Shown here piece by piece: positions 741-48,782 of a stretch of 64,000 nucleotides of DNA. Below the pieces are notes generated by a model, which was not told where the DNA came from, made no database searches, and saw nothing but the letters and a program-made list of their open reading frames with translations. The DNA comes from a virus. Taxonomy: Duplodnaviria; Heunggongvirae; Uroviricota; Caudoviricetes. The stretch's first letter is position 1. Every line of letters begins with the position of its first letter. The translations under genes were made by a program, and so were the position numbers. The DNA lies in the IMG/VR virus record IMGVR_UViG_3300037279_000046; one strand, 5' to 3'.

Positions 741-824
741 AAAAATACAATTACTTTCAAGTTTTACCTTTGACTGTAGGCCAGAATCTATCCATAATTC
801 ACACATTATATACATTAATGGCGG

Positions 825-1721: not shown

Positions 1722-1772
1722 TATGGAGCACAATCCCCTATTGTGTGATGTAGTTTTACAGAGAGGTGGATC

Positions 1773-4819: not shown

Positions 4820-5203
4820 ATGGCCCTACTTCCTCCAATTCCGGACAATCAGTCTGGCAACATGGGTGGCAGCTCTTCAGCTCCTAACCGTGCACCTGCT
4901 GCTAAAGTTATTCAAAAAGCTTTGGCAAACACTCGCGTTGCTAACCAAGTTGTCGCCGCTCTTAGCGGTCTTTCAACTCCAGCAGCTATCATCGCTACCC
5001 ATGCTGATGCTACTACTGACTTCGCAGCTCTTATGGTCGGCGACATCGTCCTCCATATTCCTGCGACAGCTGGTAACACGTCTTTCGGCGTTGTTGCTAC
5101 TGCTGGAACTGCTCCTGCAGCTGCAGTTGTTGGTGACTTGTACCTTGTGCACCGTCCAGTAAACTTGGACAGCAACATCGGTACAGCTCCCGCGCTCGTT
5201 TAA
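4820..5203 (+). CDS. small Ala/Gly/Thr-rich protein (late gene; possible virion or decoration protein)
   Basis: Flanked by the late-promoter motif, a strong RBS and a strong terminator; isolated plus-strand gene among minus-strand genes. Confidence 0.55.
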   Translation: MALLPPIPDNQSGNMGGSSSAPNRAPAAKVIQKALANTRVANQVVAALSGLSTPAAIIATHADATTDFAALMVGDIVLHIPATAGNTSFGVVATAGTAPAAAVVGDLYLVHRPVNLDSNIGTAPALV

Positions 5204-5218
5204 TTTCAACTCGTTAAA

Positions 5219-5635
5219 CTAGCTCTTATTGGGTCTGGTGTGTTCCACCAGACCCTTTATTTTTTCAGCCACGTATTCCGGATCGTTAAGTAATCGATTC
5301 AATCCGGAGGGGTGGGGCAATTCATAAAAGTTCACACCTAGCATCTTCAATGCGGTAGCGGCAGTTTTTCCTACAGCTATAATTGGTACATCTTTGTGGT
5401 GTGCAATGATCATTGCAAGATGGTTAAGTCTACCCTTGATCTCTTTCATCGTCAGTTGTCTATTGCCTGGTGTTGGTGTATTGACCAGATTGTGCATAAT
5501 AGATATGTTTATCCCTGCCTTTTCAATCCATTCGTGCAACGTTTTACCACTACCGGTGGACATATCGAATGCTCCATTGCCCTTAGACGCTTGCGATGGA
5601 TTAGATCCAATGAATAAAGCTGTGCGCGGTTTCAC
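5219..5635 (-). CDS. uracil-DNA glycosylase superfamily protein with atypical motif 1
   Basis: HPSGLN matches the UDG family-4 motif B (HPSPLN). Motif A is GSNPS instead of GEGPG, which is more like MUG GINPG. Overall spacing matches the UDG fold. Confidence 0.55.
   Translation of the reverse strand: MKPRTALFIGSNPSQASKGNGAFDMSTGSGKTLHEWIEKAGINISIMHNLVNTPTPGNRQLTMKEIKGRLNHLAMIIAHHKDVPIIAVGKTAATALKMLGVNFYELPHPSGLNRLLNDPEYVAEKIKGLVEHTRPNKS
5231..5266 (+). terminator. Rho-independent terminator
   Basis: Hairpin GGGTCTGGTG-TGTTC-CACCAGACCC followed by TTTATTTTTT. Confidence 0.65.
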
Positions 5636-6732
5636 GATGTCCTCGGTTTAATCTGTAAATGATAAAAATCACCAACCGTAGAGCAATTGATTTCTAAGTC
5701 TAGCATGGCTGAACTATCTTCAAAGTCACTATATTTTTCTTTAAAATAAAACTCACTTATGCCTGCCTGCCACAACATTCTGATACACTTAGTGCAAGGA
5801 GATAGGGTGCAATAAAGTATACAATCACCAGTCTTAACTCCTGATCGCACTGCGTTACATAATAAGTTTGTTTCTGCGTGTATTATATAATTATATTTTT
5901 CTGGACGAGATGTGGGTAGAGAACTGTCTGGTCCACCCCTAACGAACCCATTAAAACCTTCTGCCGTAACCGCTAATGTTTTAGGGTCTATTAATAGGGC
6001 TGCAACTTTAGTATGTATGTCGTGTGACTGTGACGCTATAACTACAGCTCTATCGTGATAGATTTTAAGTTTTTTCTCTGAGATCGGGTTATTGGTTTGG
6101 TTAAACTTGTTATTTTTAACTATTCTCTGTATTTGTTCTAAAAAATGTGTTGCAGAGTAATCTAATTTCATAGTGTTGCAAGTAGCACAACTTGTGACAC
6201 AGTTTGATGTTTGGTACCCAATAGAGTTATCCAATCTATCGATTCCATTGTATTTAACTATTGTGTGTTTATTTTTTTGAATGTTGGCAGGGGAAGCGTC
6301 ACAGTAGAAACAATTTTGAAAAATAAGCCCCTTAAACTCATCTAAGGTTAGATTAAAATCATAATTTCTAGCCTTAGCATTGCCCTTATAATCTAGAAAA
6401 ATATTATTGATAGATGTCGTTTTTAGCTGTTCGTCTGTTCGAGCATATCTATTGCCACAGTGGCCACATCCACTTGAGGTGCCATTAATTAAACTTGCAA
6501 CTTTTATTGACTTAAGAACACCACATTTACACTTTACATCTACATATCGTGTTTTTTTTGATTTTAAGTTTATCTTAATGTAAGGAAGAGACATTATTGT
6601 CCATTTATTTATGACAGAATTTAAGGCAATATTCTCTGTCTTAGATGGACGTTTCATACTCTTATTTAACCTCTGCCTACAAAGGCATTTCTCTATCTTT
6701 GATTCACACGTAGGATAGATACACCGACGCAT
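5632..6732 (-). CDS. HNH endonuclease fused in frame to dCMP deaminase
   Basis: N-terminus has a Cys-rich zinc ribbon plus YNGIDRLDNSIGYQTSNCVTSCATCN (HNH). C-terminus has HAETNLL...LSPCTKC (cytidine/dCMP deaminase Zn motifs H-A-E and PCxxC). No Met separates the two halves. Confidence 0.75.
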   Translation of the reverse strand: MRRCIYPTCESKIEKCLCRQRLNKSMKRPSKTENIALNSVINKWTIMSLPYIKINLKSKKTRYVDVKCKCGVLKSIKVASLINGTSSGCGHCGNRYARTDEQLKTTSINNIFLDYKGNAKARNYDFNLTLDEFKGLIFQNCFYCDASPANIQKNKHTIVKYNGIDRLDNSIGYQTSNCVTSCATCNTMKLDYSATHFLEQIQRIVKNNKFNQTNNPISEKKLKIYHDRAVVIASQSHDIHTKVAALLIDPKTLAVTAEGFNGFVRGGPDSSLPTSRPEKYNYIIHAETNLLCNAVRSGVKTGDCILYCTLSPCTKCIRMLWQAGISEFYFKEKYSDFEDSSAMLDLEINCSTVGDFYHLQIKPRTS

Positions 6733-7538
6733 TACTTTTTCTTCTCTTCGATTGCGGGTTCTTGCGTATATAATATGTAATCTCTGTATTCAAAGACATA
6801 TCTATTATCCCGATGACGACTTGACGTTGAAACCTTATAGGTATATGAAGAGTTAAAGAACGGAGTGAAAGCTTCGCCTTTGCGAGTCATCTCGCGTTCG
6901 CATTCCATGATACATCTAACCATGTAGTCAGACTGAATGTCTTGGGCACTCATAGGAACCTTAACGATCTCGTTAATAACAACTTCTGTTTTATATCTAC
7001 CTGTGAAATCCTGAGTGGTCCAGTATTTATCTCCAACTTTAAGCTTATCGAAGAAGTCATTAAACCCCTGAAGTGTTTTAAACTTCTGACCCTTCTTGCG
7101 GTTGACCTTAGTGATGATCTTGCGTTGCTCTAACGCCTGCGAGTGGATCTTCTTGATGTCAAAGTCGCCACCCAAGAACGTTGCTTCTGCAAACTCAGGA
7201 TCAACTTCAAATCTTGTGGATTTGTAGTCAAAATCAGTCATCGACCAGATCTCTTGACCAAGAGTGCCGTTAGCAACGCGAAGCTGCTTAATATAGCCGA
7301 TACCAAACTCGTCTTCATGGATGTAGACGTAACGCTGAGCCATCTTATTGTCGGAATTTATATTTTCCGTAATCCACTCAGTCTCATCACGAGGCTTATA
7401 TCGAGCCTGTTTACGAATGAGAACGTCGCCGATCTCGAACTTCATGAATTCTTTAATCACCATCCACTTGCGGATAGGATTACTATTCATCTCGCCTTCG
7501 AGTTGCTGTTTCTGTTTATCGTCAAGCTCAACTTTCAT
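6732..7538 (-). CDS. hypothetical protein
   Basis: 268-aa ORF with ATGA-type overlap to the downstream gene; no motif recognised. Confidence 0.5.
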   Translation of the reverse strand: MKVELDDKQKQQLEGEMNSNPIRKWMVIKEFMKFEIGDVLIRKQARYKPRDETEWITENINSDNKMAQRYVYIHEDEFGIGYIKQLRVANGTLGQEIWSMTDFDYKSTRFEVDPEFAEATFLGGDFDIKKIHSQALEQRKIITKVNRKKGQKFKTLQGFNDFFDKLKVGDKYWTTQDFTGRYKTEVVINEIVKVPMSAQDIQSDYMVRCIMECEREMTRKGEAFTPFFNSSYTYKVSTSSRHRDNRYVFEYRDYILYTQEPAIEEKKK

Positions 7539-7622
7539 ACTATCTTCCTGTGTCCGATTTCATAGGTCCGCAAACTTTGCAGACAATACGAGTGCCCTGA
7601 GAATTGCCGTGCTGGTCAACTA

Positions 7623-7772
7623 CTTCTTGCCAGAATCACTGGTGAGGAGGACATTCTTTCTTCTCCACGATAATCTGGTTACCATGAGCAGATCCATCTG
7701 TAGGCTTAGCGGCAGATGCTGCTAGACGTGGAACAATGACTACTAGTGCAAAAATGACGATTAAGACAAATA
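7623..7772 (-). CDS. small membrane protein (49 aa), absent from the ORF track
   Basis: Minus strand reads GGAGGAATAATG then MDFVFVLIVIFALVVIVPRLAASAAKPTDGSAHGNQIIVEKKECPPHQ*; strong RBS and one TM helix. Confidence 0.35.
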
Positions 7773-7781
7773 CAAAGTCCA

Positions 7782-8045
7782 TTATTCCTCCGGATCGAGT
7801 TCAGTTGACGAGATACTATCTTCTTTAGCTTCTAAGTCATCGATGATGCTCTGTGCACCAACAAATACACGATGTGGATCGTGAGTCACCTTCTTAAGGC
7901 GTTTCATTTTAACTTTTTGCTTGATCTTTCCACGGATAGGACAATTAAACTCTACTTCAACTTCCACGATCTCTTCAATTGTCGGGTCTTCGAATACATG
8001 CTTCTTTTTGTTTTTAGCACCCTTGGGTCTAGCCATTATTTCCAC
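7782..8045 (-). CDS. hypothetical basic protein
   Basis: 87-aa ORF, Lys-rich. Confidence 0.45.
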   Translation of the reverse strand: MEIMARPKGAKNKKKHVFEDPTIEEIVEVEVEFNCPIRGKIKQKVKMKRLKKVTHDPHRVFVGAQSIIDDLEAKEDSISSTELDPEE

Positions 8046-14499: not shown

Positions 14500-15021
14500 T
14501 TAGTGAGTGGTTCCGCTACCGTCGTCTTTGCCACCCTTATGAACAGTAAACTTACCCACGACGCTAGATTTAGAAGGCGGAGTAGGTACTGAAGGCTTAG
14601 GTGCAACAAGTACCATTTCAGCCATGAAGTCAGACAGGAACATCTCAGTGACTACGCCAGCTGGATCCATAGTGGTAATCTTAGGATCATGTCCGTCTGC
14701 AAGAATGCTTTTGAGAAGATCGCTCTTCTCTTGTTCGATCTCTTTTATCGCAGAATTAAGAGAGTTCTTGTATTTACCGTCAAGACCGTTCTTCTGCGGT
14801 TGATCCAGTTGACCGATAAGGTCTAACTGCTCATTGGTCAAATCTTTGACACGCTTCATTCGTTTCTCGATCTCAGAGCGAGTAACTTTCTTTGGCTCAG
14901 CTGGCTTACCGCTCTTATTTTTAACTGGGCGACTGCCGATATACATGATGGCCGCAACTACGCCAGCTGCACCAGTTAATAATCCAAGGAAATAGAAAGT
15001 TAATGCAGTCACCATAGTCAT
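14500..15021 (-). CDS. membrane-anchored coiled-coil protein
   Basis: N-terminal TM helix (ALTFYFLGLLTGAAGVVAAIMYIG) followed by a charged helical region. Confidence 0.5.
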   Translation of the reverse strand: MTMVTALTFYFLGLLTGAAGVVAAIMYIGSRPVKNKSGKPAEPKKVTRSEIEKRMKRVKDLTNEQLDLIGQLDQPQKNGLDGKYKNSLNSAIKEIEQEKSDLLKSILADGHDPKITTMDPAGVVTEMFLSDFMAEMVLVAPKPSVPTPPSKSSVVGKFTVHKGGKDDGSGTTH

Positions 15022-15521
15022 TTGCTTCTCCCGCGCAATTTTAGATACTTCTTATGCTTGCTGACAACTAGGTTCTTCTTCACCGGTCCCAGTTGGTCGA
15101 TGTATAGTTTACCGTTGAGGTGATCGACCTCGTGTTGAACCGCTGCAGCCGTAAACCCTTTATACTCCTGCGTTTGCTCTTCAAAGTTCTCATCAAGATA
15201 CTTGAGTGTGAGGACTTGAGCTCGCTCTGTATCAGAGAAGGTTCCAGGAATAGATAGGCAACCTTCTTGGAATGGAAGCATCTCACCTATCGCAGTTATC
15301 TCAGGGTTGATATAGAGTTTAGATTCATCAGTCTCTAAGTTCTTCAAGATAAAGAATCGCTTAGAGATGCCTACTTGATTTGCTGCAAGACCTGCGCCTT
15401 CAGCCTCATTCATTGTGGTGATCATTTCTGGGACTAGGGACTTAACGTAATCTAACTCTTCACGAGTAACAGGCTCTGTGACCTTGCGTAGAACAGGGTC
15501 AGTCATCATTGCTATCTTCAT
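15018..15521 (-). CDS. def: peptide deformylase
   Basis: Motifs GLAANQVG, EGCLSIPG and QHEVDHLNG (the three PDF motifs). Start set at the internal Met (MKIAMMTDPVLRKV), which has a GGAGG RBS 7 nt upstream. Confidence 0.85.
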   Translation of the reverse strand: MKIAMMTDPVLRKVTEPVTREELDYVKSLVPEMITTMNEAEGAGLAANQVGISKRFFILKNLETDESKLYINPEITAIGEMLPFQEGCLSIPGTFSDTERAQVLTLKYLDENFEEQTQEYKGFTAAAVQHEVDHLNGKLYIDQLGPVKKNLVVSKHKKYLKLRGRSK

Positions 15522-15756
15522 CGCAAGCCTCCTGTTTATGTTTATCATCAGGCAGGGCAGGACCATAGTAGAAGATCGGGCTTCCACCAGCAATATACTT
15601 CTCCTGAGCTCCAGGAAGATGGATCTCCATGTATCCGCGGACAATGTTAAGAACTTCACCCCACTGTAAATCGTGGTCGCAGCACATCTCCATGATGATG
15701 TCTTCAAGGTCTAGGGTGATGTCACCCATTGGACGAAGCTTCTTTTTCTTGGGCAT
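15499..15756 (-). CDS. hypothetical acidic protein
   Basis: 85-aa ORF whose 3' end overlaps the def start by about 23 nt. Confidence 0.4.
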   Translation of the reverse strand: MPKKKKLRPMGDITLDLEDIIMEMCCDHDLQWGEVLNIVRGYMEIHLPGAQEKYIAGGSPIFYYGPALPDDKHKQEACDEDSNDD

Positions 15757-16396: not shown

Positions 16397-16470
16397 TGGC
16401 AAACCGCCCAGGAATCGAACCCGGTCTAAGAGGTTTGGAATCTCTTGTGCTACCGTTACACCAGCGGAAT
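16397..16470 (-). tRNA. tRNA-Trp (anticodon CCA) candidate
   Basis: Minus-strand read has D-arm GTGT/GCAC, anticodon arm AGAGA-TTCCAAA-CCTCT, T-arm CCGGG-TTCGATT-CCTGG and an encoded CCA. The acceptor stem has two U-U mismatches. Confidence 0.5.
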
Positions 16471-16674: not shown

Positions 16675-17238
16675 TTATACTTTCTTGTATCCCGGAAGTT
16701 TCTTGCCTTTTACACGGCAGAGTTTGAGTGCCTTTTCGATGCTGGCACTAGAGAATGGATTAGCGACGGATTTCATGTTCTTCCTGAGCATCTGTGCCCA
16801 GTAGAACTCTGCGAAAGGAATAGTAGACTTGTCGAAGCCACCCAACTCACGTACCATCCAAGCGAGTGAACGGTAAGGGTTATCAGACATACAGCGGATG
16901 TCAGCAGGCAGATCATACGGACTATGGGGACCTTTACCGAAGGCGTCATATAAGAAGACATACTTCATCTTCTTCATCTTTGCCCAGAATTTCTTCTTGC
17001 CCATCTTAGAGTAGTCGGCTTTTACTTCAACCACTACATGACGGTGGCCACATTCCCACATAGCTCTAACATAGTGATGGTGGTCGATTAGATACATCAA
17101 TCCACCAGGTCCTACGATGACTGGAACTTTCTTCTCAGAGTTATGTTCTCCGCGTTTTACCTTGGCGATCTTGTCATCAACATCTTTGAATCCTAGAGAG
17201 AACTGGGTAGGTTTTAGATCTAGAAGTAGTTTCTTCAT
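16675..17238 (-). CDS. ParB/sulfiredoxin-fold nuclease-like protein
   Basis: KIAKVKRGE...PVIVGPGG...YLIDHHH resembles the ParB N-terminal nuclease/NTP-binding motif (DGHHR-like). Confidence 0.6.
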   Translation of the reverse strand: MKKLLLDLKPTQFSLGFKDVDDKIAKVKRGEHNSEKKVPVIVGPGGLMYLIDHHHYVRAMWECGHRHVVVEVKADYSKMGKKKFWAKMKKMKYVFLYDAFGKGPHSPYDLPADIRCMSDNPYRSLAWMVRELGGFDKSTIPFAEFYWAQMLRKNMKSVANPFSSASIEKALKLCRVKGKKLPGYKKV

Positions 17239-17498
17239 TACCAGCCTCTTTCGTATGCAAGACCACTTGCTGTTCTGATGTTAAGCTTGCGAAGCAGTGT
17301 CAACACTTTCATTTGATGGTATTCGTCCATAGAACCGACATAGCCTGGGCGCTCACCGTAGTAAGACCACCAACTATGATCTTCGTCATCCCAGTAATAG
17401 GGATACCAACAATCAGTCTCCTGCTCTACAATCTGTAGCCAGTACTCATTGTGCTCTGATCTATTGTATTTATCTGTTCGATCACTGCGCCAGCTCAT
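17238..17498 (-). CDS. hypothetical Trp/Tyr-rich small protein
   Basis: 86-aa ORF, WYPYYWDDEDHSWWSYYGERPGY. Confidence 0.4.
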   Translation of the reverse strand: MSWRSDRTDKYNRSEHNEYWLQIVEQETDCWYPYYWDDEDHSWWSYYGERPGYVGSMDEYHQMKVLTLLRKLNIRTASGLAYERGW

Positions 17499-17510
17499 CT
17501 AAGCATTATA

Positions 17511-17541
17511 CAGTGAGAAAGGCCCCGGCTTGGAACCGGGG
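17511..17541 (-). terminator. putative Rho-independent terminator (weak U tract)
   Basis: Minus-strand hairpin CCCCGG-TTCCAAG-CCGGGG followed by CCTTTCTC, immediately 3' of the 17550..17783 gene. Confidence 0.35.
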
Positions 17542-17549
17542 TCGGGAAC

Positions 17550-17783
17550 TTAGTACTTGAATACGTAGAACTCGTTATCGCTTGCTGCTGTCTTTTTAAC
17601 GGCATACTGTGTGATCATGGGGGCTTCAGCTGTAATGTGAATGCTGTACCCTTCCTTTGCAACGATCTCAATATCAACAAGATCTGCTTTAGCTAGGTTC
17701 TCAACCAAGGGCACCGGCAAACAGACAGTGCGGGTTGCCAGATAACGAGAGCTTGAACGGGTCTTATATACGATGGTCGCCAT
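17550..17783 (-). CDS. hypothetical protein
   Basis: 77-aa ORF. Confidence 0.45.
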   Translation of the reverse strand: MATIVYKTRSSSRYLATRTVCLPVPLVENLAKADLVDIEIVAKEGYSIHITAEAPMITQYAVKKTAASDNEFYVFKY

Positions 17784-17784
17784 A

Positions 17785-19212
17785 TTACACCTTTACAGGA
17801 TAAGCACGAGCACGCACTTGATCCAGAGTTGATTGGTTAGTCAACACACCGTTCAAGAAGACCTGCTCAAGCAGTCCACCTTTTTCGTCAGCAGCAGATA
17901 CTTGATCTGTTGTGACGTAACGACCGTTGATGAAATCAAGACGCATTCTACCCTTGTGCGATTTCTTGCCCGAGTCAGTAATAGGGTCCTTAACGATGTC
18001 GCGCTCTTCTCCATTAACTTCTACGTAAGTGGTCTTAACAGCGAAGCCTTGGTCGTCACGGCTGTGCGATTGCAACAGCAATCCACCAACACCGATAACG
18101 AGATTAGAAGACGCAAATCCCATGCCCTTTAGACGCGCGAGGATGCACTCGTAACGGTCAAAATACATTCCGTCGCCGTAGATCAGGCCTACTTTAGGAT
18201 TCAATTCTTGGAAGCCTAATGCGTTCGTTGTCGTACCGAACTGGCGAGCCAACAGACGCATAGCACCGAGGTTCTCAGCAGAACCAGCAGGAGCAGACGG
18301 GTTTCCACAGATGATGAGCTCTGGGTCACCAGAGTCCGGGCGGAATACCACTTTGCCGTCACGAGCCATGATGCGCTTGTAAAGTACCTGAGTGAAGTTC
18401 TCAAGAACATTCCACAGGTTATAGGTATCAGACACGATAGAGACGATGCCGGTAGGGTAAGTGTTGAGCATGTGCTCAAACGCCTTCAACTCATGTTCCT
18501 GACCGTACGAACACATAACTGAGTGCTCAGATGCAGGGACAGAAGCACCGATAAGGCCAGTCGCAGCGTAGTTCTCCATCAAGAACTTAACAGCCGGAAC
18601 GGTATCTGTTCCACGGAAGTTGATCAAGTGAGCAGCACCAGAGATAGCCGCAGTCTCCTCAGACGAGCAACCACGGTATCCGAAGTCATGGACAGCCCAA
18701 TCGCAGTGGAGACGGTTGCCTACAGTTTCATCCGCGTATGTGTCTACAAGGTTACGCAACTTCATAGAGTACGAACCAACAGTTGTCGGGTTCCATACTT
18801 TAAGAACGAGCGACTCAAAGAAGCCAACTGTCCAAGCGAAGTCAGGATGAGTATTGGTCATCGTGAGAAGAACGTTCTTAACGGGCAGAACAGTTCCTTC
18901 TGGAACAGCTTTGATCTCCAAGGGGATATAACCAAGGTCTGCCAATGCGTGCATCTTTTCAAAGATGTGGCGCGGGGTAGGTCCGAGAATCGATTCACGT
19001 ACCTGCAAGAACTCGTTCACCATTGGGTGAGTGATCTTCTGTGCCAAGTAGTTCTTCAAGATAGGCTGAAGCCCATTGAAGAGCGTGAACGGAATCTTCT
19101 TGTCGGAGCGAGCAACGAGATAGGCGTAGGCCTTAGTGATCCCCTCTGGGAACTGCTCCATGTGCCCCATCTTATATACGTCAGTGCAAAGTAATACGTT
19201 ATCGTTAATCAT
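17785..19212 (-). CDS. nadV: nicotinamide phosphoribosyltransferase (NAMPT/NadV family)
   Basis: 475 aa with DFGYRG, GTDTV and FRPDSGDP, the hallmark NAMPT/NAPRT type II PRT motifs. Confidence 0.85.
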   Translation of the reverse strand: MINDNVLLCTDVYKMGHMEQFPEGITKAYAYLVARSDKKIPFTLFNGLQPILKNYLAQKITHPMVNEFLQVRESILGPTPRHIFEKMHALADLGYIPLEIKAVPEGTVLPVKNVLLTMTNTHPDFAWTVGFFESLVLKVWNPTTVGSYSMKLRNLVDTYADETVGNRLHCDWAVHDFGYRGCSSEETAAISGAAHLINFRGTDTVPAVKFLMENYAATGLIGASVPASEHSVMCSYGQEHELKAFEHMLNTYPTGIVSIVSDTYNLWNVLENFTQVLYKRIMARDGKVVFRPDSGDPELIICGNPSAPAGSAENLGAMRLLARQFGTTTNALGFQELNPKVGLIYGDGMYFDRYECILARLKGMGFASSNLVIGVGGLLLQSHSRDDQGFAVKTTYVEVNGEERDIVKDPITDSGKKSHKGRMRLDFINGRYVTTDQVSAADEKGGLLEQVFLNGVLTNQSTLDQVRARAYPVKV

Positions 19213-19220
19213 GTTTCTCC

Positions 19221-19463
19221 TTAAAAGTTAAATGTAGCTGTTACGTAGAAGCGGACTTCGCCCTCGTCTTCTTCTACTGAGTAGTCGAACGTTGTACCAT
19301 CATCAAAATGTTCTGCGAGAGCATCAACCTTAGCCTGCGCAAGAGTGTGCTCCACAGACATATCAACCCCTGGGATCTTCTTCACAACGTGAATTGGTTT
19401 CTTCTTCTTAGGGTCGATGGTATCGCTCACGCTTCCACCATATCTGGATCGCAGACGATCCAA
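19221..19463 (-). CDS. hypothetical protein
   Basis: 80-aa ORF between nadV and the macro gene; overlaps the macro gene 3' end. Confidence 0.4.
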   Translation of the reverse strand: MDRLRSRYGGSVSDTIDPKKKKPIHVVKKIPGVDMSVEHTLAQAKVDALAEHFDDGTTFDYSVEEDEGEVRFYVTATFNF

Positions 19464-19936
19464 TTGATTCTTGGATAATCTTTTAAGAGGATTTCAAGGA
19501 TAAGTTCTGAGTCTTTCCAAGGTACAGCGAACAGACCAGAGTTAAACTTATTAGAGTAGACGTCGATCTGTGGGTACGTGTCGCTTGGGTGGGCGAGATA
19601 GATCTTACGTAAGAGATCACGGAGAGCTAGAGTTGTATTGATCTTGATCTCTTCTACGCCGTCTTTCTTAGGTCCGTAGTCATGAGATGTAACGATCCAG
19701 CCGACCCAGTGAGCTTCGGATTCAGGGAACGATGATAGACCAGCAAGACCTACAGCCGTTCCACGCTGCATGTTAGCAGACTCGCAGAACATCTTGTAGT
19801 CGAGAAAGCTCTGAAGATACTTCTCTTTGAAAGGCTTGGCAATGCCAGAACCCCAGACACCCTGCGAGTTGCAGGCATGAATGATTACACTCTCACGAGG
19901 AGCGTCAAAGAGACTCATCTTCTTGTGGGTTACCAT
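19427..19936 (-). CDS. macro domain protein (ADP-ribose-binding or -processing)
   Basis: VIIHACNSQGVWGSGIAKPF matches the macro-domain N-x6-GGGVxxAI-type motif. Confidence 0.7.
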   Translation of the reverse strand: MVTHKKMSLFDAPRESVIIHACNSQGVWGSGIAKPFKEKYLQSFLDYKMFCESANMQRGTAVGLAGLSSFPESEAHWVGWIVTSHDYGPKKDGVEEIKINTTLALRDLLRKIYLAHPSDTYPQIDVYSNKFNSGLFAVPWKDSELILEILLKDYPRINWIVCDPDMVEA

Positions 19937-20754
19937 ACTTTATATCCTTCCGGGTTCCTGAGCAGAGAGTTCGTGGTGTGAATATCACGGATCCCTGCAT
20001 CAAATAATACCTGCTTCCCTTTTGAGAATAGTCCGTGTGAGACTGCTAGGTCGATTGGTCCTGTCTTATATTCTTTAAGTGCTTCAGCTACTTTGATGAA
20101 GGTCATCCCGCCGTCGCAGATGTCGTCGATGATTAGGACACTCTTGCCGTAGAGATCCTGGTGAGATGTATTAACTTTAAGTCCAGTGATCTCGCCCGTC
20201 TGCTGGTTGCGAACCTTCTCGCACCAGATGAACTGCTTACCAGTGGTCTTAGCGTAGCGCTCAGCTGCGCCTTTGTCTGGGTAACATACAAAGTCATAAC
20301 CGATGGTGTTAAACAGAGTCTGATGAAACTCTTTGGGAGTTGTAGACTCCATTGGAAAGACGAGATCAGACTTGGAGTGTGGGTCAAAAGCCTCGATGCG
20401 CGTGATACCTGCGTTATATAGGATCTCTGTGAATGTCTTGAGCGCGAAGCTCAACTTATTGTTTACTTCCTTATCTTGACGAGCGTAAGGAAGATAAGGA
20501 CATACAAGATCAACACTGGTATCGAAAACGTCATAGCATAACTGCGCCACTTGGCATACTTGGATTAACTCAGCTTCATTCTCAAACAGCCATAGTATAT
20601 ATGTGACGCTGTTCGGATCCATCTTTGACTCATCAATCTTCCAGACCTGGGAAGTTCCATCTGGAAAGATGGTTATCGTAAAACTTACTTCTTCGCCGTC
20701 GCTGATGAGCTTAATCATGTGTTCTCTCCCAGTAAGAAATCTAAGTGGCGCCAC
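19930..20754 (-). CDS. prs: ribose-phosphate pyrophosphokinase family (PRPP synthetase or ADPR-pyrophosphokinase-like)
   Basis: PRPP-binding loop VLIIDDICDGGMTF plus LPYARQDK. Confidence 0.85.
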   Translation of the reverse strand: MAPLRFLTGREHMIKLISDGEEVSFTITIFPDGTSQVWKIDESKMDPNSVTYILWLFENEAELIQVCQVAQLCYDVFDTSVDLVCPYLPYARQDKEVNNKLSFALKTFTEILYNAGITRIEAFDPHSKSDLVFPMESTTPKEFHQTLFNTIGYDFVCYPDKGAAERYAKTTGKQFIWCEKVRNQQTGEITGLKVNTSHQDLYGKSVLIIDDICDGGMTFIKVAEALKEYKTGPIDLAVSHGLFSKGKQVLFDAGIRDIHTTNSLLRNPEGYKVW

Positions 20755-21215
20755 ATAGCATCGTGCTCGCCGTCTTTCTTGAGCATCAGCTTGAAGTGCG
20801 GATACTCTTTCTTGTACATGTCAAGCTGTTTCGCTTGATCTAGTACAGACCGTTCTACGTTTGCTATACGGTCAGCCAGCTTCAGGGTCGTAGCCTCTCT
20901 AGAGGCTTGAATCTTAGGGTAGGTCTTTTCGTGACGCTCTTTGCGGTTCTTACCAGGCTCGTTTGTTACTCGGTGAACTAGATCTGCTACATGCCTACCG
21001 AATGTAATCTCGATCTGGAACACTGTTGCATCTGTGTCTTCGACTACATCATGCAACCAGGCTGCGACCTGAAGGTCCTCGCTATCAAACTTGAAGCGGC
21101 GCAAGACTTCAGCTACGGCAGCGAGATGCTCTGTGTAGGGAGAATTCTCCCCGTATTTCTGGTCTTTGTGCTTTGCTGCTGCAAATGCCGCTGCTGCTTG
21201 AATAGCGAGGCTCAT
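20715..21215 (-). CDS. HD-domain phosphohydrolase, SpoT/Mesh1-like (p)ppGpp-hydrolase-type
   Basis: KDQKYGENSPYTEHLAAVA...AAWLHDVVEDT matches the RelA/SpoT HD hydrolase pattern. Confidence 0.6.
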   Translation of the reverse strand: MSLAIQAAAAFAAAKHKDQKYGENSPYTEHLAAVAEVLRRFKFDSEDLQVAAWLHDVVEDTDATVFQIEITFGRHVADLVHRVTNEPGKNRKERHEKTYPKIQASREATTLKLADRIANVERSVLDQAKQLDMYKKEYPHFKLMLKKDGEHDAMWRHLDFLLGENT

Positions 21216-21339
21216 ATTAGTCTTTCTTCTGTGTTGCCGCTTCTTTAATCAACTTGATACCAACGTATAGTACGAGAGAAGCTACGCCAAGGATCAATAC
21301 TCCGATACCGATATCAACTAATGCGATCATATTTTCTCC

Positions 21340-21386
21340 TTAAATAAGTCTATCTAGAAAAGGCACCACCCGGAGGTGATGCCTTC
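21340..21386 (-). terminator. Rho-independent terminator
   Basis: Minus-strand hairpin AAGGCATCACCTCC/GGGTGGTGCCTT followed by TTTTCTAGA, just 3' of the SPFH gene. Confidence 0.5.
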
Positions 21387-21396
21387 AAAGATATAC

Positions 21397-22650
21397 TTAG
21401 TTGTCTTCAGACTTGTTTGCTGCAGCAGGCACTTTAGTGCGTGGAGCTTTAGCAGGTTGATCTTTGTTCATGCGATCGTTCAAATCCATGAAGGACTTAA
21501 GACCGATTGCGTCGAAGGGGTTCATTGCCGATTGACCGTTAGATCCACCGCCGATTACCATCATGCCTGGGAACTGAACACCAGCAAGCTCATGTGCTAC
21601 ACCGATGCGAGTCTCTTTGTCGATCGTCGCACGCTCAAGGGGAGTAAGACCTGCTTGAACTTTGAGGCGGTTAACTTCAGCAAGAGCTTTACCGTTCGTT
21701 ACTTCAGCCGCAGCATCTTGTTCAGCTTGTTTGCGTTTCAGCTGAGATACTTCGAACTCTTTCTGAGCGATAGTGACTTCTTTGATCTTCTCAACTTCTT
21801 GCTTAGCTTTCTCAATCGCGATCTGAGCATTACCTTGTTCGCGTGCAGTGATCGCATCTTGCTTAGCTTTTTCAGCGTTAGCTTTAGCGACAACTTTCAT
21901 CTGCTCAGCTTCTTTTTTCTTCTGGATCAGAGCATCGATAGTCTGGTCGAAGTCGATGTCTTTGATAACGAACTGGATGATGGTTACGTTATAAGCTTTG
22001 AGCGGAGAGATCTTGCGAACAACTGGCTGTCCAGCTTTGTCAAGCTTGATGTTGACTTCACGAGTCACGAACTCATTGCCGTCTGCATCTTTCTCTTTGA
22101 ATTCCTTAGCTTCAGTCTCGTAGATCCCGTTCTTTACTTGATCTTCCACAAGTGAAGTGAACTCAGAGCGACGAGTAGAGTACGACTCTTCAGCGCGCAT
22201 CAGAGTAGCCGTCTGCATCAAGGCTTCAGCAACAGTCTGACGAATCAGATCGTGCTTGACGCGCTCGTAAGACTTGAAGTCTTTATGCAGGAGCTTCTGA
22301 GTCTCAGGGTCAGAAGGTAGACGGAATTTGATGCCGCCAGACACCTTCGCAGTACCGCCGTCGTTGAAGCGAATGTCGATCGTGTCTGACTCAGCACCTT
22401 TGCCGCCGTCAAGATCTGACTTCGAGAAGTAGTACATGTCCGACACGTGGTAAGTTGTTACGTTACCGAAGAGCTTCAGATACGTACCTGACTCATTGTG
22501 AACAGTTACATCACCAGTAACAGCTGCCTGTTTAATCTGATAATAGCCTTGGTCATTCGTCGTGAACACTTCACGTCCGACCGTTGCCAGGATAAGAACT
22601 GCGACCAATCCGCCTACGGCGAGACCAATCAATTTAACTCGTGCGTCCAT
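21397..22650 (-). CDS. SPFH/band-7 (prohibitin/HflK-like) membrane protein
   Basis: N-terminal TM helix, SPFH core, and a long EAEQ..AKA..AKQ coiled coil typical of HflK/stomatin/prohibitin. Confidence 0.8.
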   Translation of the reverse strand: MDARVKLIGLAVGGLVAVLILATVGREVFTTNDQGYYQIKQAAVTGDVTVHNESGTYLKLFGNVTTYHVSDMYYFSKSDLDGGKGAESDTIDIRFNDGGTAKVSGGIKFRLPSDPETQKLLHKDFKSYERVKHDLIRQTVAEALMQTATLMRAEESYSTRRSEFTSLVEDQVKNGIYETEAKEFKEKDADGNEFVTREVNIKLDKAGQPVVRKISPLKAYNVTIIQFVIKDIDFDQTIDALIQKKKEAEQMKVVAKANAEKAKQDAITAREQGNAQIAIEKAKQEVEKIKEVTIAQKEFEVSQLKRKQAEQDAAAEVTNGKALAEVNRLKVQAGLTPLERATIDKETRIGVAHELAGVQFPGMMVIGGGSNGQSAMNPFDAIGLKSFMDLNDRMNKDQPAKAPRTKVPAAANKSEDN

Positions 22651-23270: not shown

Positions 23271-23347
23271 TGGTACTCGAGGTGAGACTTGAACTCACAC
23301 TGTGCAGGGTTTAAGTCTGCTGCCTCTGCCAGTTGGGGTAGTCAAGC
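23271..23347 (-). tRNA. tRNA-like gene, anticodon loop CUUAAAC (anticodon UAA if canonical)
   Basis: Acceptor GCTTGAC/CTCGAGT (6 of 7 bp), perfect T-arm GTGAG-TTCAAGT-CTCAC, A73 and encoded CCA. The D-arm is poorly paired and the variable loop is 5 nt. Confidence 0.4.
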
Positions 23348-23438: not shown

Positions 23439-23534
23439 TGGAGGAAGGTATCCGATTCGCACGGATGAAACCCAGTGTTAGTGGGTTTACCAGGGTTCAA
23501 GCCTGGCGCAATAATCTATCTCTGCCAACCTTCC
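23439..23534 (-). tRNA. tRNA-Ser (anticodon UGA), type II
   Basis: Acceptor GGAAGGT/ACCTTCC, 3-bp D-stem, anticodon arm CCAGG-CTTGAAC-CCTGG, variable arm AAACCCA-loop-TGGGTTT, T-arm ATCCG-TGCGAAT-CGGAT and encoded CCA. Confidence 0.6.
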
Positions 23535-23535
23535 G

Positions 23536-24063
23536 TTAAAATTTATTCGACTTCTTTAAGTTCTCTTCCCTAGGTAAATGTTGTAAATTCCAGGGCACAT
23601 GTAGTCCACTTACGTTATCACCCTGTAATGGGACTATATGGTCCACATGGTGCCCTTCAGGACGATCTTTATAAATCTGCTTAATGTCGTCCATATTGAC
23701 CCATTTTGGAGTTTGCAACTTAATCAACTTTCTTCTCTGTGTAGCATCGATGGACTCTTTCTGTCTAAATTCTTCGTTGGTTCTGTATTTCTCTCTTCTG
23801 AAGAGTTTAGTTCTTTCTTGCTCTGCTGCTCTATATTCTTCGTTATTGTTATAACGCTTTTTCATGTTTTTTAGATTTTGAGCATTATGTCTAGCTTTAA
23901 CATTCGGATCTTTTAAAGATTCAGTTTTGCGTTTGGCTGAACTCAAAATTCTCTTTTGTCTATAAACAGGATCTGAGTCATACTTCCACTTAATATAATG
24001 GTTTTGACAAAACCCTTTACCCTTATGTTTTCTCTCACAGCCTTCAATACTACACTTCTTCAT
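23536..24063 (-). CDS. HNH homing-endonuclease-like protein embedded in the tRNA array
   Basis: N-terminal Cys/His zinc-finger ([19 protein letters not shown]). C-terminal [31 protein letters not shown] is an HNH core. Confidence 0.75.
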
Positions 24064-24504: not shown

Positions 24505-24580
24505 TGGCTGACGAGACAGGGTTCGAACCTGTGACCTAACCGTTAACAGCGGTTTGCTCTACCAACTGAGCTACACGTCA
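24505..24580 (-). tRNA. tRNA-Asn (anticodon GUU)
   Basis: Canonical cloverleaf: TA-GCTC-AGTTGGTA-GAGC, anticodon arm AACCG-CTGTTAA-CGGTT, T-arm ACAGG-TTCGAAC-CCTGT, encoded CCA. Confidence 0.8.
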
Positions 24581-47147: not shown

Positions 47148-47179
47148 CTTCTAATGATACCCTGGATAAGGATTAGACA

Positions 47180-48004: not shown

Positions 48005-48109
48005 GTCTTATTACTCGTGTAAGTATCTCATTTCGGAAACTACATTTAGTCTCGTGCCTAGCAAATTCGGCATATCGTTTGATATATGCCGAATCATAGT
48101 TCATCGACT

Positions 48110-48706: not shown

Positions 48707-48782
48707 GAAGACTCCTCGTTAAGAACATTATATCACCCGGGCCACTAGGACCCAGATGACGGTGTCTAACTAACGGGCACTC

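What the first reader, a model, noticed from the sequence alone, without database searches (positions are those of the whole stretch)
16675..21215. Phage NAD+ salvage/reconstitution cluster: NAMPT-like + macro domain + PRS-like + HD hydrolase (+ ParB-like nuclease)
NadV-like NAMPT (17785-19212) and a PRPP-synthetase-family enzyme (19930-20754) lie a few genes apart on one strand. A macro (ADP-ribose-binding) domain gene lies between them, and an HD phosphohydrolase overlaps the PRS gene end. NAMPT plus PRS (plus an NMNAT, found at 45572) is the known phage NadV/NatV-type salvage route. NAMPT-like plus PRS-like pairs have also recently been shown to rebuild NAD+ from ADP-ribose and nicotinamide to defeat NAD+-depleting defences (Thoeris, DSR, SIR2, SEFIR). 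The macro domain between them argues that ADP-ribose, not only PRPP, is a substrate here. The macro and HD combination is not part of the described minimal pathways.
Basis: partly seen in the sequence, partly recalled or inferred. Interest (0 to 1): 0.75.

Follow-up and report, generated by a model that had tools for sequence, protein, structure and literature searches.

The report
Phage NAD+ rebuilding operon, unusual variant
This phage carries a tightly packed set of genes that most likely rebuilds the coenzyme NAD+ from the fragments left when bacterial defences destroy it; the pathway type is already known, but the last enzyme here belongs to an undescribed branch that lacks the published hallmark of such enzymes.

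Summary
The first three genes overlap start-to-stop.

The layout matches the published NARP1-AP pathway (Adps, Adpp, Namat; Osterman 2024 and 2026). The PRS-like protein is Adps-type: it shares its substrate loop with a validated Adps and lacks the canonical Prs loop. The macro protein is Poa1p-like (E = 3.6e-25), as described for Adpp.

The claimed NMNAT at 45572 is a CoaD/PPAT-like protein. I found no NMNAT or Nudix gene in the window.

The new point is the transferase. It belongs to a third lineage ("clade B"), separate from true Nampts (200/200 bootstraps) and from validated Namats (200/200). It lacks the aromatic "selectivity clamp" said to define Namat. Clade B is nevertheless almost always paired with Adps-type kinases and is sometimes fused to one. 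In an orthologous operon a clamp-bearing Namat takes its place. In bacteria it sits in nrtR–prs–nadV operons. No relative turned up among 50,697 deposited phage genomes.

The HD gene's role is unproven and may reflect lineage synteny only.

Verdict: a new variant of a known system, of moderate interest.

The parts
21356..21383 (-). Terminator-like hairpin (GGCATCACC-TCCG-GGTGGTGCC) followed by TTTTCT, just downstream of the SPFH/Band_7 gene. Probable upstream boundary of the transcription unit.
   Evidence: Read directly from the sequence printed. The consensus scan did not list it, so this is a visual call only.
21217..21330 (-). Small ORF of 37 aa, hydrophobic (MIALVDIGIGVLILGVASLVLYVGIKLIKEAATQKKD). 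It has the RBS AAGGAG, and its stop codon lies 1 nt before the HD start. Function unknown.
   Evidence: Sequence. A 37-aa ORF occupies the same position upstream of HD in L104.
20715..21215 (-). Stand-alone HD_4 hydrolase of 166 aa, of the MESH1 / small-alarmone-hydrolase type. Translationally coupled to the next gene. Whether it belongs to the pathway is not established.
   Evidence: PF13328 at 53.6 bits and TIGR00691 N-terminal hydrolase region at 70.8 bits. Best PDB matches are human and fly MESH1 at 1e-13 and bacterial SAHs. The H, HD, ED, D and N motifs are visible in that alignment. It lies upstream of PRS-Macro in L013, L014, L103 and L104.
19930..20718 (-). Adps-like ADPR pyrophosphokinase candidate (PRS family; 262 aa from the ATG at 20718). 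Its substrate loop reads DDICDGGMTF.
   Evidence: phrog_619 at 198.7 bits, the same family as the validated SPbetaL1 and DyoEdafos Adps. Below the TIGR01251 cut-off. Only 76 bits to the nearest solved Prs. In the NJ tree and loop table it nests among Adps partners and lies far from E. coli and archaeal Prs. Start and overlap.
19427..19936 (-). Adpp-like macro domain protein (169 aa): a Poa1p-family candidate ADP-ribose-1''-phosphate phosphatase.
   Evidence: A family profile hits yeast Poa1p (6lfq/6lft) at E = 3.6e-25, while other macro classes score 8e-10 or worse. Poa1p alone hits it at 8e-11. JGI names identical and related proteins ADP-ribose 1''-phosphate phosphatase.
19221..19361 (-). 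Possible small ORF (46 aa from an internal ATG; 80 aa if the upstream TTG is used) between the macro and NAMPT-like genes. Function unknown, and it may not be a gene.
   Evidence: Relatives carry unrelated small ORFs in this position (40 aa in L013, 44 aa in L103). No family hit.
17785..19212 (-). NAMPT-family transferase (475 aa) of 'clade B'. Catalytic core intact; Namat aromatic clamp absent (GGLLLQSHSRD in place of GSFTYQYNTRD). Proposed to perform the Namat step.
   Evidence: Strong RBS AAGGAGAAAC-ATG.
17550..17783 (-). ORF of 77 aa whose ATG lies 1 nt after the NAMPT stop codon. No family hit.
17238..17498 (-). ORF of 86 aa with no family hit. A 41%-identical homologue sits in the same position in L014.
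16675..17238 (-). ParBc_2 protein (putative ParB-like nuclease, 187 aa). Conserved downstream neighbour in L014. No evidence that it takes part in NAD metabolism.
   Evidence: PF08857 at 155.8 bits. 62% identical neighbour in L014.

Best explanation
The core of the cluster is a NARP1-AP-type NAD+ reconstitution operon.

Proposed steps (all inferred from homology and gene context; none assayed here):
1. The Poa1p-like macro protein (Adpp-like) removes the 1''-phosphate from ADPR-1''-phosphate, the product of RES-type NAD+ phosphorylases. This yields ADP-ribose.
2. The PRS-like protein (Adps-like) uses ATP to pyrophosphorylate ADP-ribose, whether it comes from step 1 or directly from SIR2, TIR or SEFIR NADases. 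This gives ADPR-pyrophosphate.
3. [quoted passage not shown] This counters NAD+-depleting abortive-infection defences.

The transferase belongs to a lineage (clade B) that keeps the ancestral Nampt-type glycine-rich phosphate cradle and has no aromatic adenine clamp. It is therefore probably less selective than published Namats and may also make NMN from PRPP.

The HD, PRS and macro genes are co-translated (overlapping stop and start codons). The MESH1/SAH-like HD hydrolase is co-expressed but is not shown to be part of the pathway.
For: Gene order and packing:
- The order HD > PRS > macro > (small ORF) > NAMPT, with ATGA and 7-nt overlaps, matches the published Adps-Adpp-Namat order of Vibrio phage Gary.

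The PRS-like protein is Adps-type:
- Its loop DDICDGGMTF matches the biochemically validated DyoEdafos Adps (DDICDGGGTF) and most partners of validated-type Namats.
- Canonical Prs has DDMIDTGGT (E. coli) or DDIISTGGT (archaea).
- It nests among Adps partners in the tree.
- It falls in phrog_619 with validated Adps proteins and below the TIGR01251 cut-off.

Internal control:
- The only sampled locus with a canonical Prs (L037) also has a human-type Nampt motif, and it groups with true Nampts.

The macro protein is Poa1p-like:
- Profile hit to Poa1p at E = 3.6e-25.

The transferase:
- All NAM and NMN core contact residues are conserved: D11, Y13, F177, R180, D203, A227, R291, D293, G346, D347, G376, R385 and D386.
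- It scores higher against the SPbetaL1 Namat structure (355 bits) than against human Nampt (281 bits).
- It separates from true Nampts, including a KVP40-like one, in 200/200 bootstraps with the clamp columns removed.

Context of clade B:
- 16 of 17 sampled clade B loci have an Adps-type neighbour.
- Two representative proteins are fusions of an Adps-type domain with a clade B domain.
- In L104 the SPFH, HD, PRS and macro genes are orthologous to the window's (56-69% identity). Its transferase is instead a clamp-bearing Namat, 59.5% identical to SPbetaL1 Namat and 39.7% to the window protein.
- In bacteria, clade B sits in nrtR-prs-nadV operons. The NrtR repressor is released best by ADP-ribose (PMC2330246).

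Other support:
- No NMNAT or Nudix gene is present in the window.
- Literature: a true Nampt (KVP40) can already make NAD+ from ADPR-PP. Transplanting the clamp into human Nampt does not confer Namat activity, so the clamp is not the only determinant.
Against: - The enzyme fails the published Namat signature GSXphiXphiXphiTRD. SPbetaL1 F392, Y394 and Y396 correspond to L378, L380 and S382. S190, S391 and A362 all correspond to Gly, as in Nampt. The SCL loop is short, as in Nampt.
- In SPbetaL1, clamp double mutants lose up to 16.6-fold of NAD+ synthesis and lose anti-defence activity while keeping NMN synthesis.
- No clade B enzyme has been assayed, to my knowledge.
- The trees are neighbour-joining on modest samples. 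Support for clade B monophyly is only 71-85%.
- In one related phage (L103) the HD-PRS-macro genes occur with no transferase within 5 kb.
- Only 64 kb of a genome of roughly 177 kb was examined, so an NMNAT could lie elsewhere.
Confidence: 0.66

Rival explanations
1. Classical PRPP-based nicotinamide salvage. The PRS-like enzyme makes PRPP from ribose-5-phosphate. The NAMPT-like enzyme is a true Nampt (NadV) that makes NMN. NAD+ is then completed by a host NMN adenylyltransferase, or by the PPAT-like protein at 45572. The macro and HD genes would be unrelated neighbours.
For: - The transferase has the Nampt-type GG.LLQ motif, glycines at the S190, S391 and A362 positions, and a short SCL loop. 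It shares these with human and KVP40-like Nampts.
- The 45572 protein has an HxGH motif, not the TxGH typical of PPAT. A non-CoA substrate therefore cannot be excluded.
- Bacterial prs-nadV operons were long read this way.
Against: - The PRS-like protein lacks the conserved phosphate-binding Thr loop of every canonical Prs compared. It shares its loop with a validated Adps and groups away from Prs.
- The one locus with a real Prs (L037) looks different in both of its genes.
- The transferase separates from true Nampts in 200/200 bootstraps.
- A Poa1p-like macro gene overlaps the PRS gene by 7 nt.
- A clamp-bearing Namat replaces the transferase in an orthologous operon.
- The 45572 protein is PPAT-like over its full length and lies 26 kb away.
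- In Bas63 the same reading was refuted experimentally.
Confidence: 0.14
2. Generalist enzyme. The clade B transferase uses both PRPP (giving NMN) and ADPR-PP (giving NAD+) at comparable rates. It would represent the ancestral, unspecialised state from which clamp-bearing Namats evolved. The operon would then boost NAD+ both constitutively and in response to NADase attack.
For: - Clade B lies between true Nampts and Namats in the unrooted tree, with mean distances of 1.02 to Namats and 1.24 to Nampts.
- It combines Nampt-like clamp residues with the GxxYGD signature (G342, Y345) that it shares with Namats. My reference Nampts have RxxQGD at that site.
- Both KVP40 Nampt and SPbetaL1 Namat show some activity on the other substrate.
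- Clamp mutants of Namat keep NMN synthesis.
Against: - No biochemical data exist.
- In the wider sample the GxxYGD signature is not clean: sequences with a Nampt-type clamp are mixed.
- An enzyme that also drains PRPP would impose the metabolic cost that NARP1 is thought to avoid.
Confidence: 0.3
3. The HD (MESH1/SAH-like) hydrolase is a third 'feeder' or auxiliary enzyme of the pathway. It might remove the 2'-phosphate from 2'-phospho-ADPR or from NADP(H), or recycle ADPR-PP breakdown products. On this reading it is not an independent (p)ppGpp/(p)ppApp hydrolase.
For: - Its stop codon overlaps the start codon of the Adps-like gene (ATGA).
- It lies upstream of PRS-macro in relatives down to 60% identity.
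- HD_4 genes lie within 0.7-7 kb of NARP1 modules in six other sampled loci of both clades: L008, L025, L073, L077, L084 and L094.
- Its closest solved relatives are MESH1 proteins. MESH1 is reported to be an NADPH phosphatase (title-level evidence, plus my own knowledge).
- There is precedent for feeder enzymes: Adpp and RyDEP.
Against: - All the tightly linked cases belong to one phage lineage with shared synteny (NifU, Pyr_excise, Band_7 and PDF neighbours).
- In L105 the HD gene persists with no Adps or macro gene.
- About 10% of loci with an HD gene within 8 kb may be no more than chance for large phages. I did not compute a background rate.
- Phage SAHs are usually read as alarmone hydrolases and occur away from NARP1, for example in phage Adele.
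- The two NARP1 accessory-gene papers do not mention an HD gene.
Confidence: 0.2

Closest known systems
NARP1-AP of Vibrio phage Gary (Adps-Adpp-Namat; Osterman et al., bioRxiv 10.64898/2026.01.28.702374)
   Same: - Same three enzyme families in the same order: PRS-family kinase, then Poa1p-like macro phosphatase, then NAMPT-family transferase.
- Same expected logic: ADPR-1''-P to ADPR to ADPR-PP to NAD+.
   Different: - The transferase here is clade B and lacks the aromatic clamp.
- An HD_4 hydrolase is translationally coupled upstream.
- I could not retrieve Gary's sequences, so the Adpp comparison runs through Poa1p (6LFQ), the same reference the authors used.
NARP1 of SPbetaL1, Bas63, FADO and DyoEdafos (Adps + Namat; Osterman 2024, Lan 2026, RyDEP preprint 2026)
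   Same: - An Adps-type kinase lies next to a NAMPT-family transferase.
- The catalytic residues are conserved.
- The Adps loop is of the same type as in DyoEdafos.
   Different: - Identity to SPbetaL1 Namat is 41%, and to the Adps proteins 28-35%.
- The transferase lies outside the 100%-supported clade that holds all validated Namats.
- It fails the SCH/SCL clamp signature.
NARP2 of Vibrio phage KVP40 (Nampt + NadM-type Nmnat/Nudix)
   Same: The clamp region of the transferase resembles Nampt (GG.LLQ, a glycine-rich cradle and a short SCL loop).
   Different: - No Nmnat or Nudix gene is present in the window.
- An Adps-type kinase and a macro gene are present instead.
- Identity to the KVP40-like Nampt is only 30%.
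- It separates from true Nampts in 200/200 bootstraps.
Bacterial nrtR-prs-nadV operons (Rodionov et al. 2008, PMC2330246) and bacterial NARP1 (Lan et al. 2026)
   Same: The nearest cellular relatives of the window transferase (53-60% identity; Pedobacter and others) sit in nrtR-prs-nadV operons. Their prs genes have the Adps-type loop, and the clamp motif is clade B (GVGGILRNHSRD).
   Different: - Those operons are chromosomal and carry the ADPR-responsive repressor NrtR.
- The phage version has no regulator and adds macro and HD genes.
- The bacterial NARP1 that was tested biochemically (Paenibacillus) is 72% identical to SPbetaL1 Namat, so it is of the clamp-bearing type.
MESH1 and bacterial or phage small alarmone hydrolases
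   Same: The HD protein has the same size, the same HD_4 fold family and the same conserved metal and catalytic motifs.
   Different: - It sits at the head of a NAD+ reconstitution operon.
- Its substrate is unknown.

Membership tests
NARP1 (Adps + Namat) | A PRS-family kinase that belongs to the Adps clade, distinct from canonical Prs | tested here: met
   - The loop DDICDGGMTF matches the validated DyoEdafos Adps.
- It nests among Adps partners and lies far from E. coli and archaeal Prs.
- It falls in phrog_619 with validated Adps proteins.
- This is a neighbour-joining tree without bootstrap support for this protein.
NARP1 (Adps + Namat) | A Namat/NAMPT homologue within 10 genes of adps (the operational definition in Osterman 2024) | tested here: met
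   The two genes are separated only by the macro gene and one small ORF.
NARP1 (Adps + Namat) | The transferase falls in the Adps-associated clade and not in the Nampt (NARP2) clade | tested here: inconclusive
   - It separates from true Nampts in 200/200 bootstraps.
- It also lies outside the 200/200-supported clade that contains every validated Namat.
- It forms a third group.
NARP1 (Adps + Namat) | [quoted passage not shown] | tested here: not met
   - The window protein has GGLLLQSHSRD, and its SCL loop is 2-3 residues shorter.
- All 120 close relatives share this state.
NARP1 (Adps + Namat) | Intact catalytic residues (equivalents of Adps K162; Namat R306, D215 and F189) | tested here: met
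   - R291, D203 and F177 are conserved in the transferase.
- The Lys of the EKVR segment aligns with the SPbetaL1 HKQR and E. coli DKRR loop.
NARP1 (Adps + Namat) | Enzyme activities: ADPR + ATP gives ADPR-PP; ADPR-PP + nicotinamide gives NAD+ | not testable with these tools
   This needs purified proteins and LC-MS.
NARP1-AP | A macro-domain gene inside the NARP1 operon | tested here: met
   The macro gene lies between the PRS-like and NAMPT-like genes and overlaps the PRS stop codon by 7 nt.
NARP1-AP | The macro protein is of the Poa1p (ADPR-1''-phosphate phosphatase) type | tested here: met
   - The family profile hits Poa1p (6lfq/6lft) at E = 3.6e-25.
- The next macro class scores 8e-10 and only partially.
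- Poa1p alone hits the window protein at 8e-11.
NARP1-AP | ADPR-1''-phosphate phosphatase activity and rescue from aRES defence | not testable with these tools
   This needs an enzyme assay and infection assays.
NARP2 (Nampt + Nmnat) | An NMN adenylyltransferase (NadM or NadR type, often with a Nudix domain) encoded by the phage | tested here: not met
   - The 45572 ORF is CoaD/PPAT-like.
- tblastn with three phage NadM/Nmnat proteins and a Nudix-box scan found nothing else in the window.
- Only 64 kb of the genome was visible.
NARP2 (Nampt + Nmnat) | A Nampt that is not associated with an Adps gene | tested here: not met
   An Adps-type gene lies two genes upstream.
Canonical ribose-phosphate diphosphokinase (Prs) | Ribose-5-phosphate loop DDx(I)(D/S)T(G/A)GT, and a score above the curated family threshold | tested here: not met
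   - The loop is DDICDGGMT.
- TIGR01251 scores 107.4 against a 113-bit cut-off, and all equivalog models score far below theirs.
- The nearest solved Prs scores 76 bits.
Small alarmone hydrolase / MESH1 (HD_4) | A stand-alone HD_4 domain of about 170 aa with the conserved H, HD, ED, D and N motifs | tested here: met
   - PF13328 at 53.6 bits.
- The alignment to MESH1 shows PYTEH, LHD, VEDTD and KLADRIAN.
Small alarmone hydrolase / MESH1 (HD_4) | Hydrolysis of (p)ppGpp or (p)ppApp, or of NADPH | not testable with these tools
   This needs an enzyme assay.

The most novel reading that the evidence does not exclude
- Clade B is a distinct, clamp-independent lineage of ADPR-PP:nicotinamide transferases, or the generalist ancestor of Namat.
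- It works with Adps-type kinases in uncultured large phages. It does the same in chromosomal, ADP-ribose-regulated nrtR-prs-nadV operons of Bacteroidota, CPR bacteria and other groups.
- If so, the published Namat sequence signature misses a whole branch of NARP1.
- The determinants of ADPR-PP use would then lie partly outside the clamp. Candidates are G342 and Y345, just before the GD motif that contacts the AMP phosphate.
- ADP-ribose-to-NAD+ recycling would then be a widespread bacterial housekeeping route that phages borrowed at least twice.
- A bolder extension is that the coupled MESH1-like HD hydrolase is a third feeder enzyme. It might convert 2'-phospho-ADPR or NADP(H) into pathway substrates.
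Probability: 0.3. Interest if true: 0.72.

Novelty: new variant of a known kind. Interest (0 to 1): 0.55.

Why it matters
NAD+ depletion is one of the commonest bacterial anti-phage strategies, and NARP1 is the main known phage answer to it.

- **Detection.** If clade B enzymes really carry out the Namat step without the aromatic clamp, tools built on cultured-phage sequences or on the clamp motif will under-count NARP1. This applies especially to environmental large phages.
- **Mechanism.** The structural account of how Namat selects its substrate would be incomplete. That fits the published failure of a clamp transplant into human Nampt.
- **An old puzzle.** The dedicated prs paralogue in ADPR-regulated nrtR-prs-nadV operons was flagged as unexplained in 2008. 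It would gain a direct explanation in further bacterial phyla.
- **A ready experiment.** The natural swap between the window-type operon and L104 offers matched constructs for testing the idea.

If the pair instead turns out to be ordinary Prs plus Nampt, the finding is a routine auxiliary metabolic module.

Tried and rejected
- **Megablast of the region against 50,697 phage records:** no match. The phage has no close deposited relative.
- **KVP40 NadV by fetching a 50-kb chunk of NC_005083:** the gene was not in that chunk. I used the KVP40-like ValKK3 Nampt and four other NARP2-type Nampts instead.
- **Promoter and terminator consensus scan:** 8 promoter-like sites against 7.8 expected, so it is uninformative. 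The operon boundaries rest on gene overlaps and one hairpin read by eye.
- **Vibrio PS17B-2 'phosphatase' as an Adpp reference:** it is a macro protein with no detectable similarity to the window's macro family (hhalign probability 0.7%). I dropped it and used Poa1p.
rejected.
- **HD as a NARP1-specific accessory:** considered but not adopted. The tight linkage is confined to one phage lineage, and L105 keeps the HD gene without Adps or macro.
- **ParBc_2 as part of the pathway:** no supporting evidence beyond synteny in L014.
- **GxxYGD versus RxxQGD as a diagnostic signature:** perfect in my curated alignment but mixed among the 150 cluster representatives. I downgraded it to a lead.
- **Structure prediction:** not run. 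The tool returns no residue-level geometry or ligand docking, so it could not settle the clamp question. Sequence profiles already placed the macro protein (Poa1p) and the HD protein (MESH1).
- **Poa1p catalytic residues:** I found no paper in the library that lists them. Active-site conservation in the macro protein is therefore judged only from family-invariant motifs.

Full report
**1. What is there**

The stretch 16675-21383 carries a run of minus-strand genes. In order of transcription they are:

| Coordinates | Product | Key evidence |
|---|---|---|
| 21330-21217 | 37-aa hydrophobic ORF | sequence only |
| 21215-20715 | HD_4 hydrolase | PF13328, 53.6 bits |
| 20718-19930 | PRS-family protein | TIGR01251 107.4 bits (cut-off 113); phrog_619 198.7 bits |
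| 19936-19427 | macro-domain protein | PF01661, 26.3 bits |
| 19361-19221 | possible small ORF | no family hit |
| 19212-17785 | NAMPT-family protein | NF006629 522.6 bits; phrog_448 519.7 bits |
| 17783-17550 | unknown ORF, 77 aa | no family hit |
| 17498-17238 | unknown ORF, 86 aa | no family hit |
| 17238-16675 | ParBc_2 protein | PF08857, 155.8 bits |

The junctions show tight coupling. The HD stop codon overlaps the ATG of the PRS gene as ATGA. That ATG gives the N-terminus MIKLISDG, as in the homologues. The PRS stop and the macro start overlap by 7 nt. The NAMPT gene has the RBS AAGGAGAAAC. A hairpin followed by a T-run lies just after the upstream SPFH gene.

The region has no near-identical DNA among 50,697 deposited phage records. 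Proteins identical to the macro and HD products occur on metagenomic contigs up to 176,817 bp. The window also carries tRNAs, RNR, ClpP, a ligase and PDF. The source is therefore a large uncultured phage.

**2. The published framework**

- NARP1 consists of Adps and Namat. Adps is a PRS-like enzyme that pyrophosphorylates ADP-ribose. Namat is a NAMPT-like enzyme that joins ADPR-PP to nicotinamide.
- NARP2 consists of a true Nampt plus an Nmnat, as in KVP40. The authors found no phage with both pathways.
- In January 2026 the same laboratory described NARP1-AP. Here a Poa1p-like macro phosphatase (Adpp) inside the operon converts ADPR-1''-phosphate, the product of aRES, into ADP-ribose. In Vibrio phage Gary the gene order is Adps-phosphatase-Namat.
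- A second accessory enzyme, RyDEP, feeds cyclic ADPR into the DyoEdafos NARP1, whose Adps and Namat were validated in vitro.
- A structural paper defined Namat by an adenine 'selectivity clamp'. [quoted passage not shown]

**3. The kinase is Adps-type**

- Against solved structures, the PRS-like protein reaches only 76 bits to archaeal Prs.
- I aligned about 85 PRS-like neighbours of NAMPT-like genes with E. coli Prs and three archaeal Prs enzymes. The window protein nests among partners of validated-type Namats.
- Its ribose-5-phosphate loop reads DDICDGGMTF. The validated DyoEdafos Adps reads DDICDGGGTF. Canonical Prs reads DDMIDTGGT or DDIISTGGT.
- The sampled loci contain a built-in control. 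L037 is the only one whose kinase has the canonical loop and groups with E. coli Prs. It is also the only one whose transferase carries a near-human clamp motif (GSGGGLLQKHDRD).

**4. The macro protein is Adpp-like**

- A profile of 23 relatives hits yeast Poa1p (6lfq/6lft, 'ADP-ribose 1''-phosphate phosphatase') at E = 3.6e-25. Every other macro class scores far worse.
- Poa1p alone finds the window protein at 8e-11.
- Poa1p also finds macro genes next to NARP1 modules in other sampled loci. One example is L085/L090, where the macro gene lies between the PRS and NAMPT genes.
- JGI labels the identical protein with the Poa1 function.

**5. The transferase is the surprise**

- Its best structural-database match is the SPbetaL1 Namat (355 bits, against 281 bits for human Nampt).
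- At the clamp, however, it reads GVGGLLLQSHSRDD, where Namats read GIGSFTYQYNTRD and human Nampt reads GSGGGLLQKLTRD.
- All 120 closest metagenomic relatives (58-91% identity) share this state.
- I sampled about 90 NAMPT-like loci from viral contigs. I added five NARP2-type phage Nampts, three of which have an annotated Nmnat within 3 kb, and then bacterial homologues.
- Neighbour-joining trees built without the clamp columns give three groups:
  - Clade A holds every validated Namat and has the aromatic clamp (200/200 bootstraps).
  - True Nampts comprise human, the NARP2-type references and L037 (200/200).
  - Clade B holds the window protein and lies between the other two. It is monophyletic in 169/200 replicates, and in 71/100 when the bacterial sequences are included, in both cases excluding L027.
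- The mean Kimura distance from the window protein is 1.02 to clade A and 1.24 to true Nampts.
- Residue by residue:
  - The nicotinamide and NMN core is fully conserved.
  - At SPbetaL1 positions S190, S391, A362, F392, T393, Y394 and Y396, clade B has G, G, G, L, L, L and S/Q/N. The first six match or resemble true Nampts; the Y396 position is variable in Nampts too.
  - At G356 and Y359, just before the G360-D361 pair that contacts the AMP phosphate, clades A and B share GxxYGD. My seven reference Nampts have RxxQGD.
  - On 150 independent cluster representatives this second signature is only partly clean: 72/75 clade A, 14/18 clade B, and a mixture among sequences with a Nampt-type clamp.

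**6. Why I still assign it the Namat step**

1. 16 of 17 sampled clade B loci have an Adps-type neighbour.
2. Two cluster representatives are fusions of an Adps-type domain with a clade B domain, one in each order.
3. L104 is a natural replacement experiment. Its SPFH, HD, PRS and macro genes are 67, 61, 56 and 69% identical to the window's, and its kinase loop is the same. Its transferase is a clamp-bearing Namat, 59.5% identical to SPbetaL1 Namat and 39.7% to the window protein.
4. The nearest cellular relatives lie in Pedobacter, Mucilaginibacter, Chitinophagales, CPR and other genomes. There they sit in nrtR-prs-nadV operons whose prs genes have the Adps-type loop. NrtR is released from DNA best by ADP-ribose, and the dedicated prs paralogue was explicitly left unexplained in 2008.
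5. The chemistry is within reach of a clamp-less enzyme. KVP40 Nampt makes NAD+ from ADPR-PP. Grafting the clamp onto human Nampt does not create Namat activity, so other determinants exist.
6. A Poa1p-like phosphatase that yields ADP-ribose is translationally coupled to the kinase.

Against this, clamp double mutants of SPbetaL1 Namat lose most NAD+ synthesis and lose anti-defence activity. No clade B enzyme has been assayed, to my knowledge. A generalist enzyme that uses both PRPP and ADPR-PP is a serious alternative.

**7. The NMNAT claim**

- The 45572-45994 ORF scores 100.9 bits for CoaD and at most 29 bits for any NMNAT model.
- It aligns end to end with 34 PPAT structures.
- It does have HxGH where PPAT usually has TxGH, so its substrate is not certain.
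- tblastn with three phage Nmnat/NadM proteins found only a marginal hit (E = 0.001) to the HxGH region of this same ORF. A Nudix-box scan found nothing in the window.

**8. The HD and ParB-like genes**

- The HD protein is a stand-alone SpoT-type hydrolase. Its closest solved relatives are MESH1 and the small alarmone hydrolases, and its catalytic motifs are intact.
- It precedes PRS-macro in L013, L014, L103 and L104. These loci share wider synteny, so they count as one lineage.
- L105 keeps the HD gene beside a true-Nampt-type fragment, with no Adps or macro gene.
- HD_4 genes lie within a few kb of NARP1 modules in six other loci. I did not compute a background rate.
- The papers I read describe phage SAHs only as presumed alarmone hydrolases and do not mention an HD partner of NARP1.
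- I therefore treat the HD gene as co-expressed but of unproven relevance.
- ParBc_2 is conserved downstream in L014 only. I have no reason to link it to NAD metabolism.

**9. Novelty**

- The pathway type is known.
- What I did not find described in the papers read is an Adps-partnered transferase lineage that lacks the Namat clamp.
- The best NAMPT matches among deposited phages are at most 42.5% identical, and the three I checked are clade A. Clade B members are at least 49% identical to the window protein.
- The published phylogenies drew their phage sequences from INPHARED, so they probably never sampled phage clade B.
- Clade B accounts for at least 18 of the 150 nearest 50%-identity clusters.

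**10. Limits**

- All functional statements are inferences from homology and gene context.
- The trees are neighbour-joining, with Kimura or BLOSUM distances, on samples biased toward relatives of the query.
- The human, 9ke8 and archaeal Prs sequences were transcribed from printed alignments and are slightly truncated.
- Vibrio phage Gary itself was not retrieved.
- Only 64 kb of the phage genome was visible.

Noticed in passing
L109-L143 (e.g. L119 = Pedobacter sp. AW31-3R chromosome NZ_CP197475, 1395894-1409303): Bacterial chromosomes of Bacteroidota, CPR and other phyla carry nrtR (NUDIX + NrtR_WHD), then prs (Adps-type loop DDICDGGATF), then nadV (clade B2 motif GVGGILRNHSRDTL). This extends the 2008 nrtR-prs-nadV observation. 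It also suggests that bacterial NARP1-like modules exist without the Namat clamp.
   Followed up: partly
P0366 (766 aa) and P0379 (779 aa): Single polypeptides that fuse an Adps-type PRS domain with a clade B NAMPT-like domain. The PRS domain is N-terminal in one and C-terminal in the other.
   Followed up: partly
L014:4242-4727; L041:6678; L118 and L119 around 7486-8031: NADAR-domain genes are inserted in or next to NARP1-type modules: between HD and PRS in a 73%-identical relative of the window operon, between PRS and NAMPT in a clade A locus, and downstream of nadV in Pedobacter. NADAR may be another ADPR-releasing accessory enzyme.
   Followed up: partly
L103 (172-kb JGI contig), 5001-6991: A related phage has HD-PRS-macro (62-69% identical to the window's) but no NAMPT-like gene within 5 kb on either side. 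Either the transferase lies elsewhere in the genome or the module is incomplete.
   Followed up: partly
window 45572-45994 (-) and 45991-46422 (-): A 140-aa PPAT/CoaD-like nucleotidyltransferase with the motif GSFNPWHKGH (HxGH, not the TxGH usual in PPAT). It overlaps a DUF3307 gene. A phage-encoded PPAT-like enzyme is unusual, and its substrate is unknown.
   Followed up: partly
P0365-P0510: many representatives of about 800 aa: Numerous NAMPT-family representatives are 750-1050 aa long and match the query in two separated stretches. This suggests intein insertions in the transferase gene.
   Followed up: no
window 21397-22650 (-), 15018-15707 (-), 46455-49846 (-), 52582-54471 (+): Other auxiliary genes in the window: an SPFH/Band_7 protein directly upstream of the operon (conserved in L014 and L104), a peptide deformylase, two ClpP-like proteases with a subtilase between them, and a class II (B12-type) ribonucleotide reductase.
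   Followed up: no
window 16397-16470, 23271-23347, 23439-23534, 24505-24580 (all -): Four tRNA genes (Trp-CCA, Leu-TAA, Ser-TGA, Asn-GTT). tRNA-Trp lies about 200 bp downstream of the ParBc_2 gene. The ORF at 23536-24063 looks HNH-like by eye.
   Followed up: no
window 1-2000: The first 2 kb have GC 0.50 and GC skew +0.26, against about 0.44 and a slightly negative skew elsewhere. They also hold plus-strand ORFs, unlike the mostly minus-strand remainder.
   Followed up: no
PDB 9ke8/9keo: An unpublished-looking 'nicotinamide phosphoribosyltransferase' structure falls inside clade A but has an atypical clamp (GAQTYQRNTRD; Q and R at the two aromatic positions). I found no paper for it.
   Followed up: no
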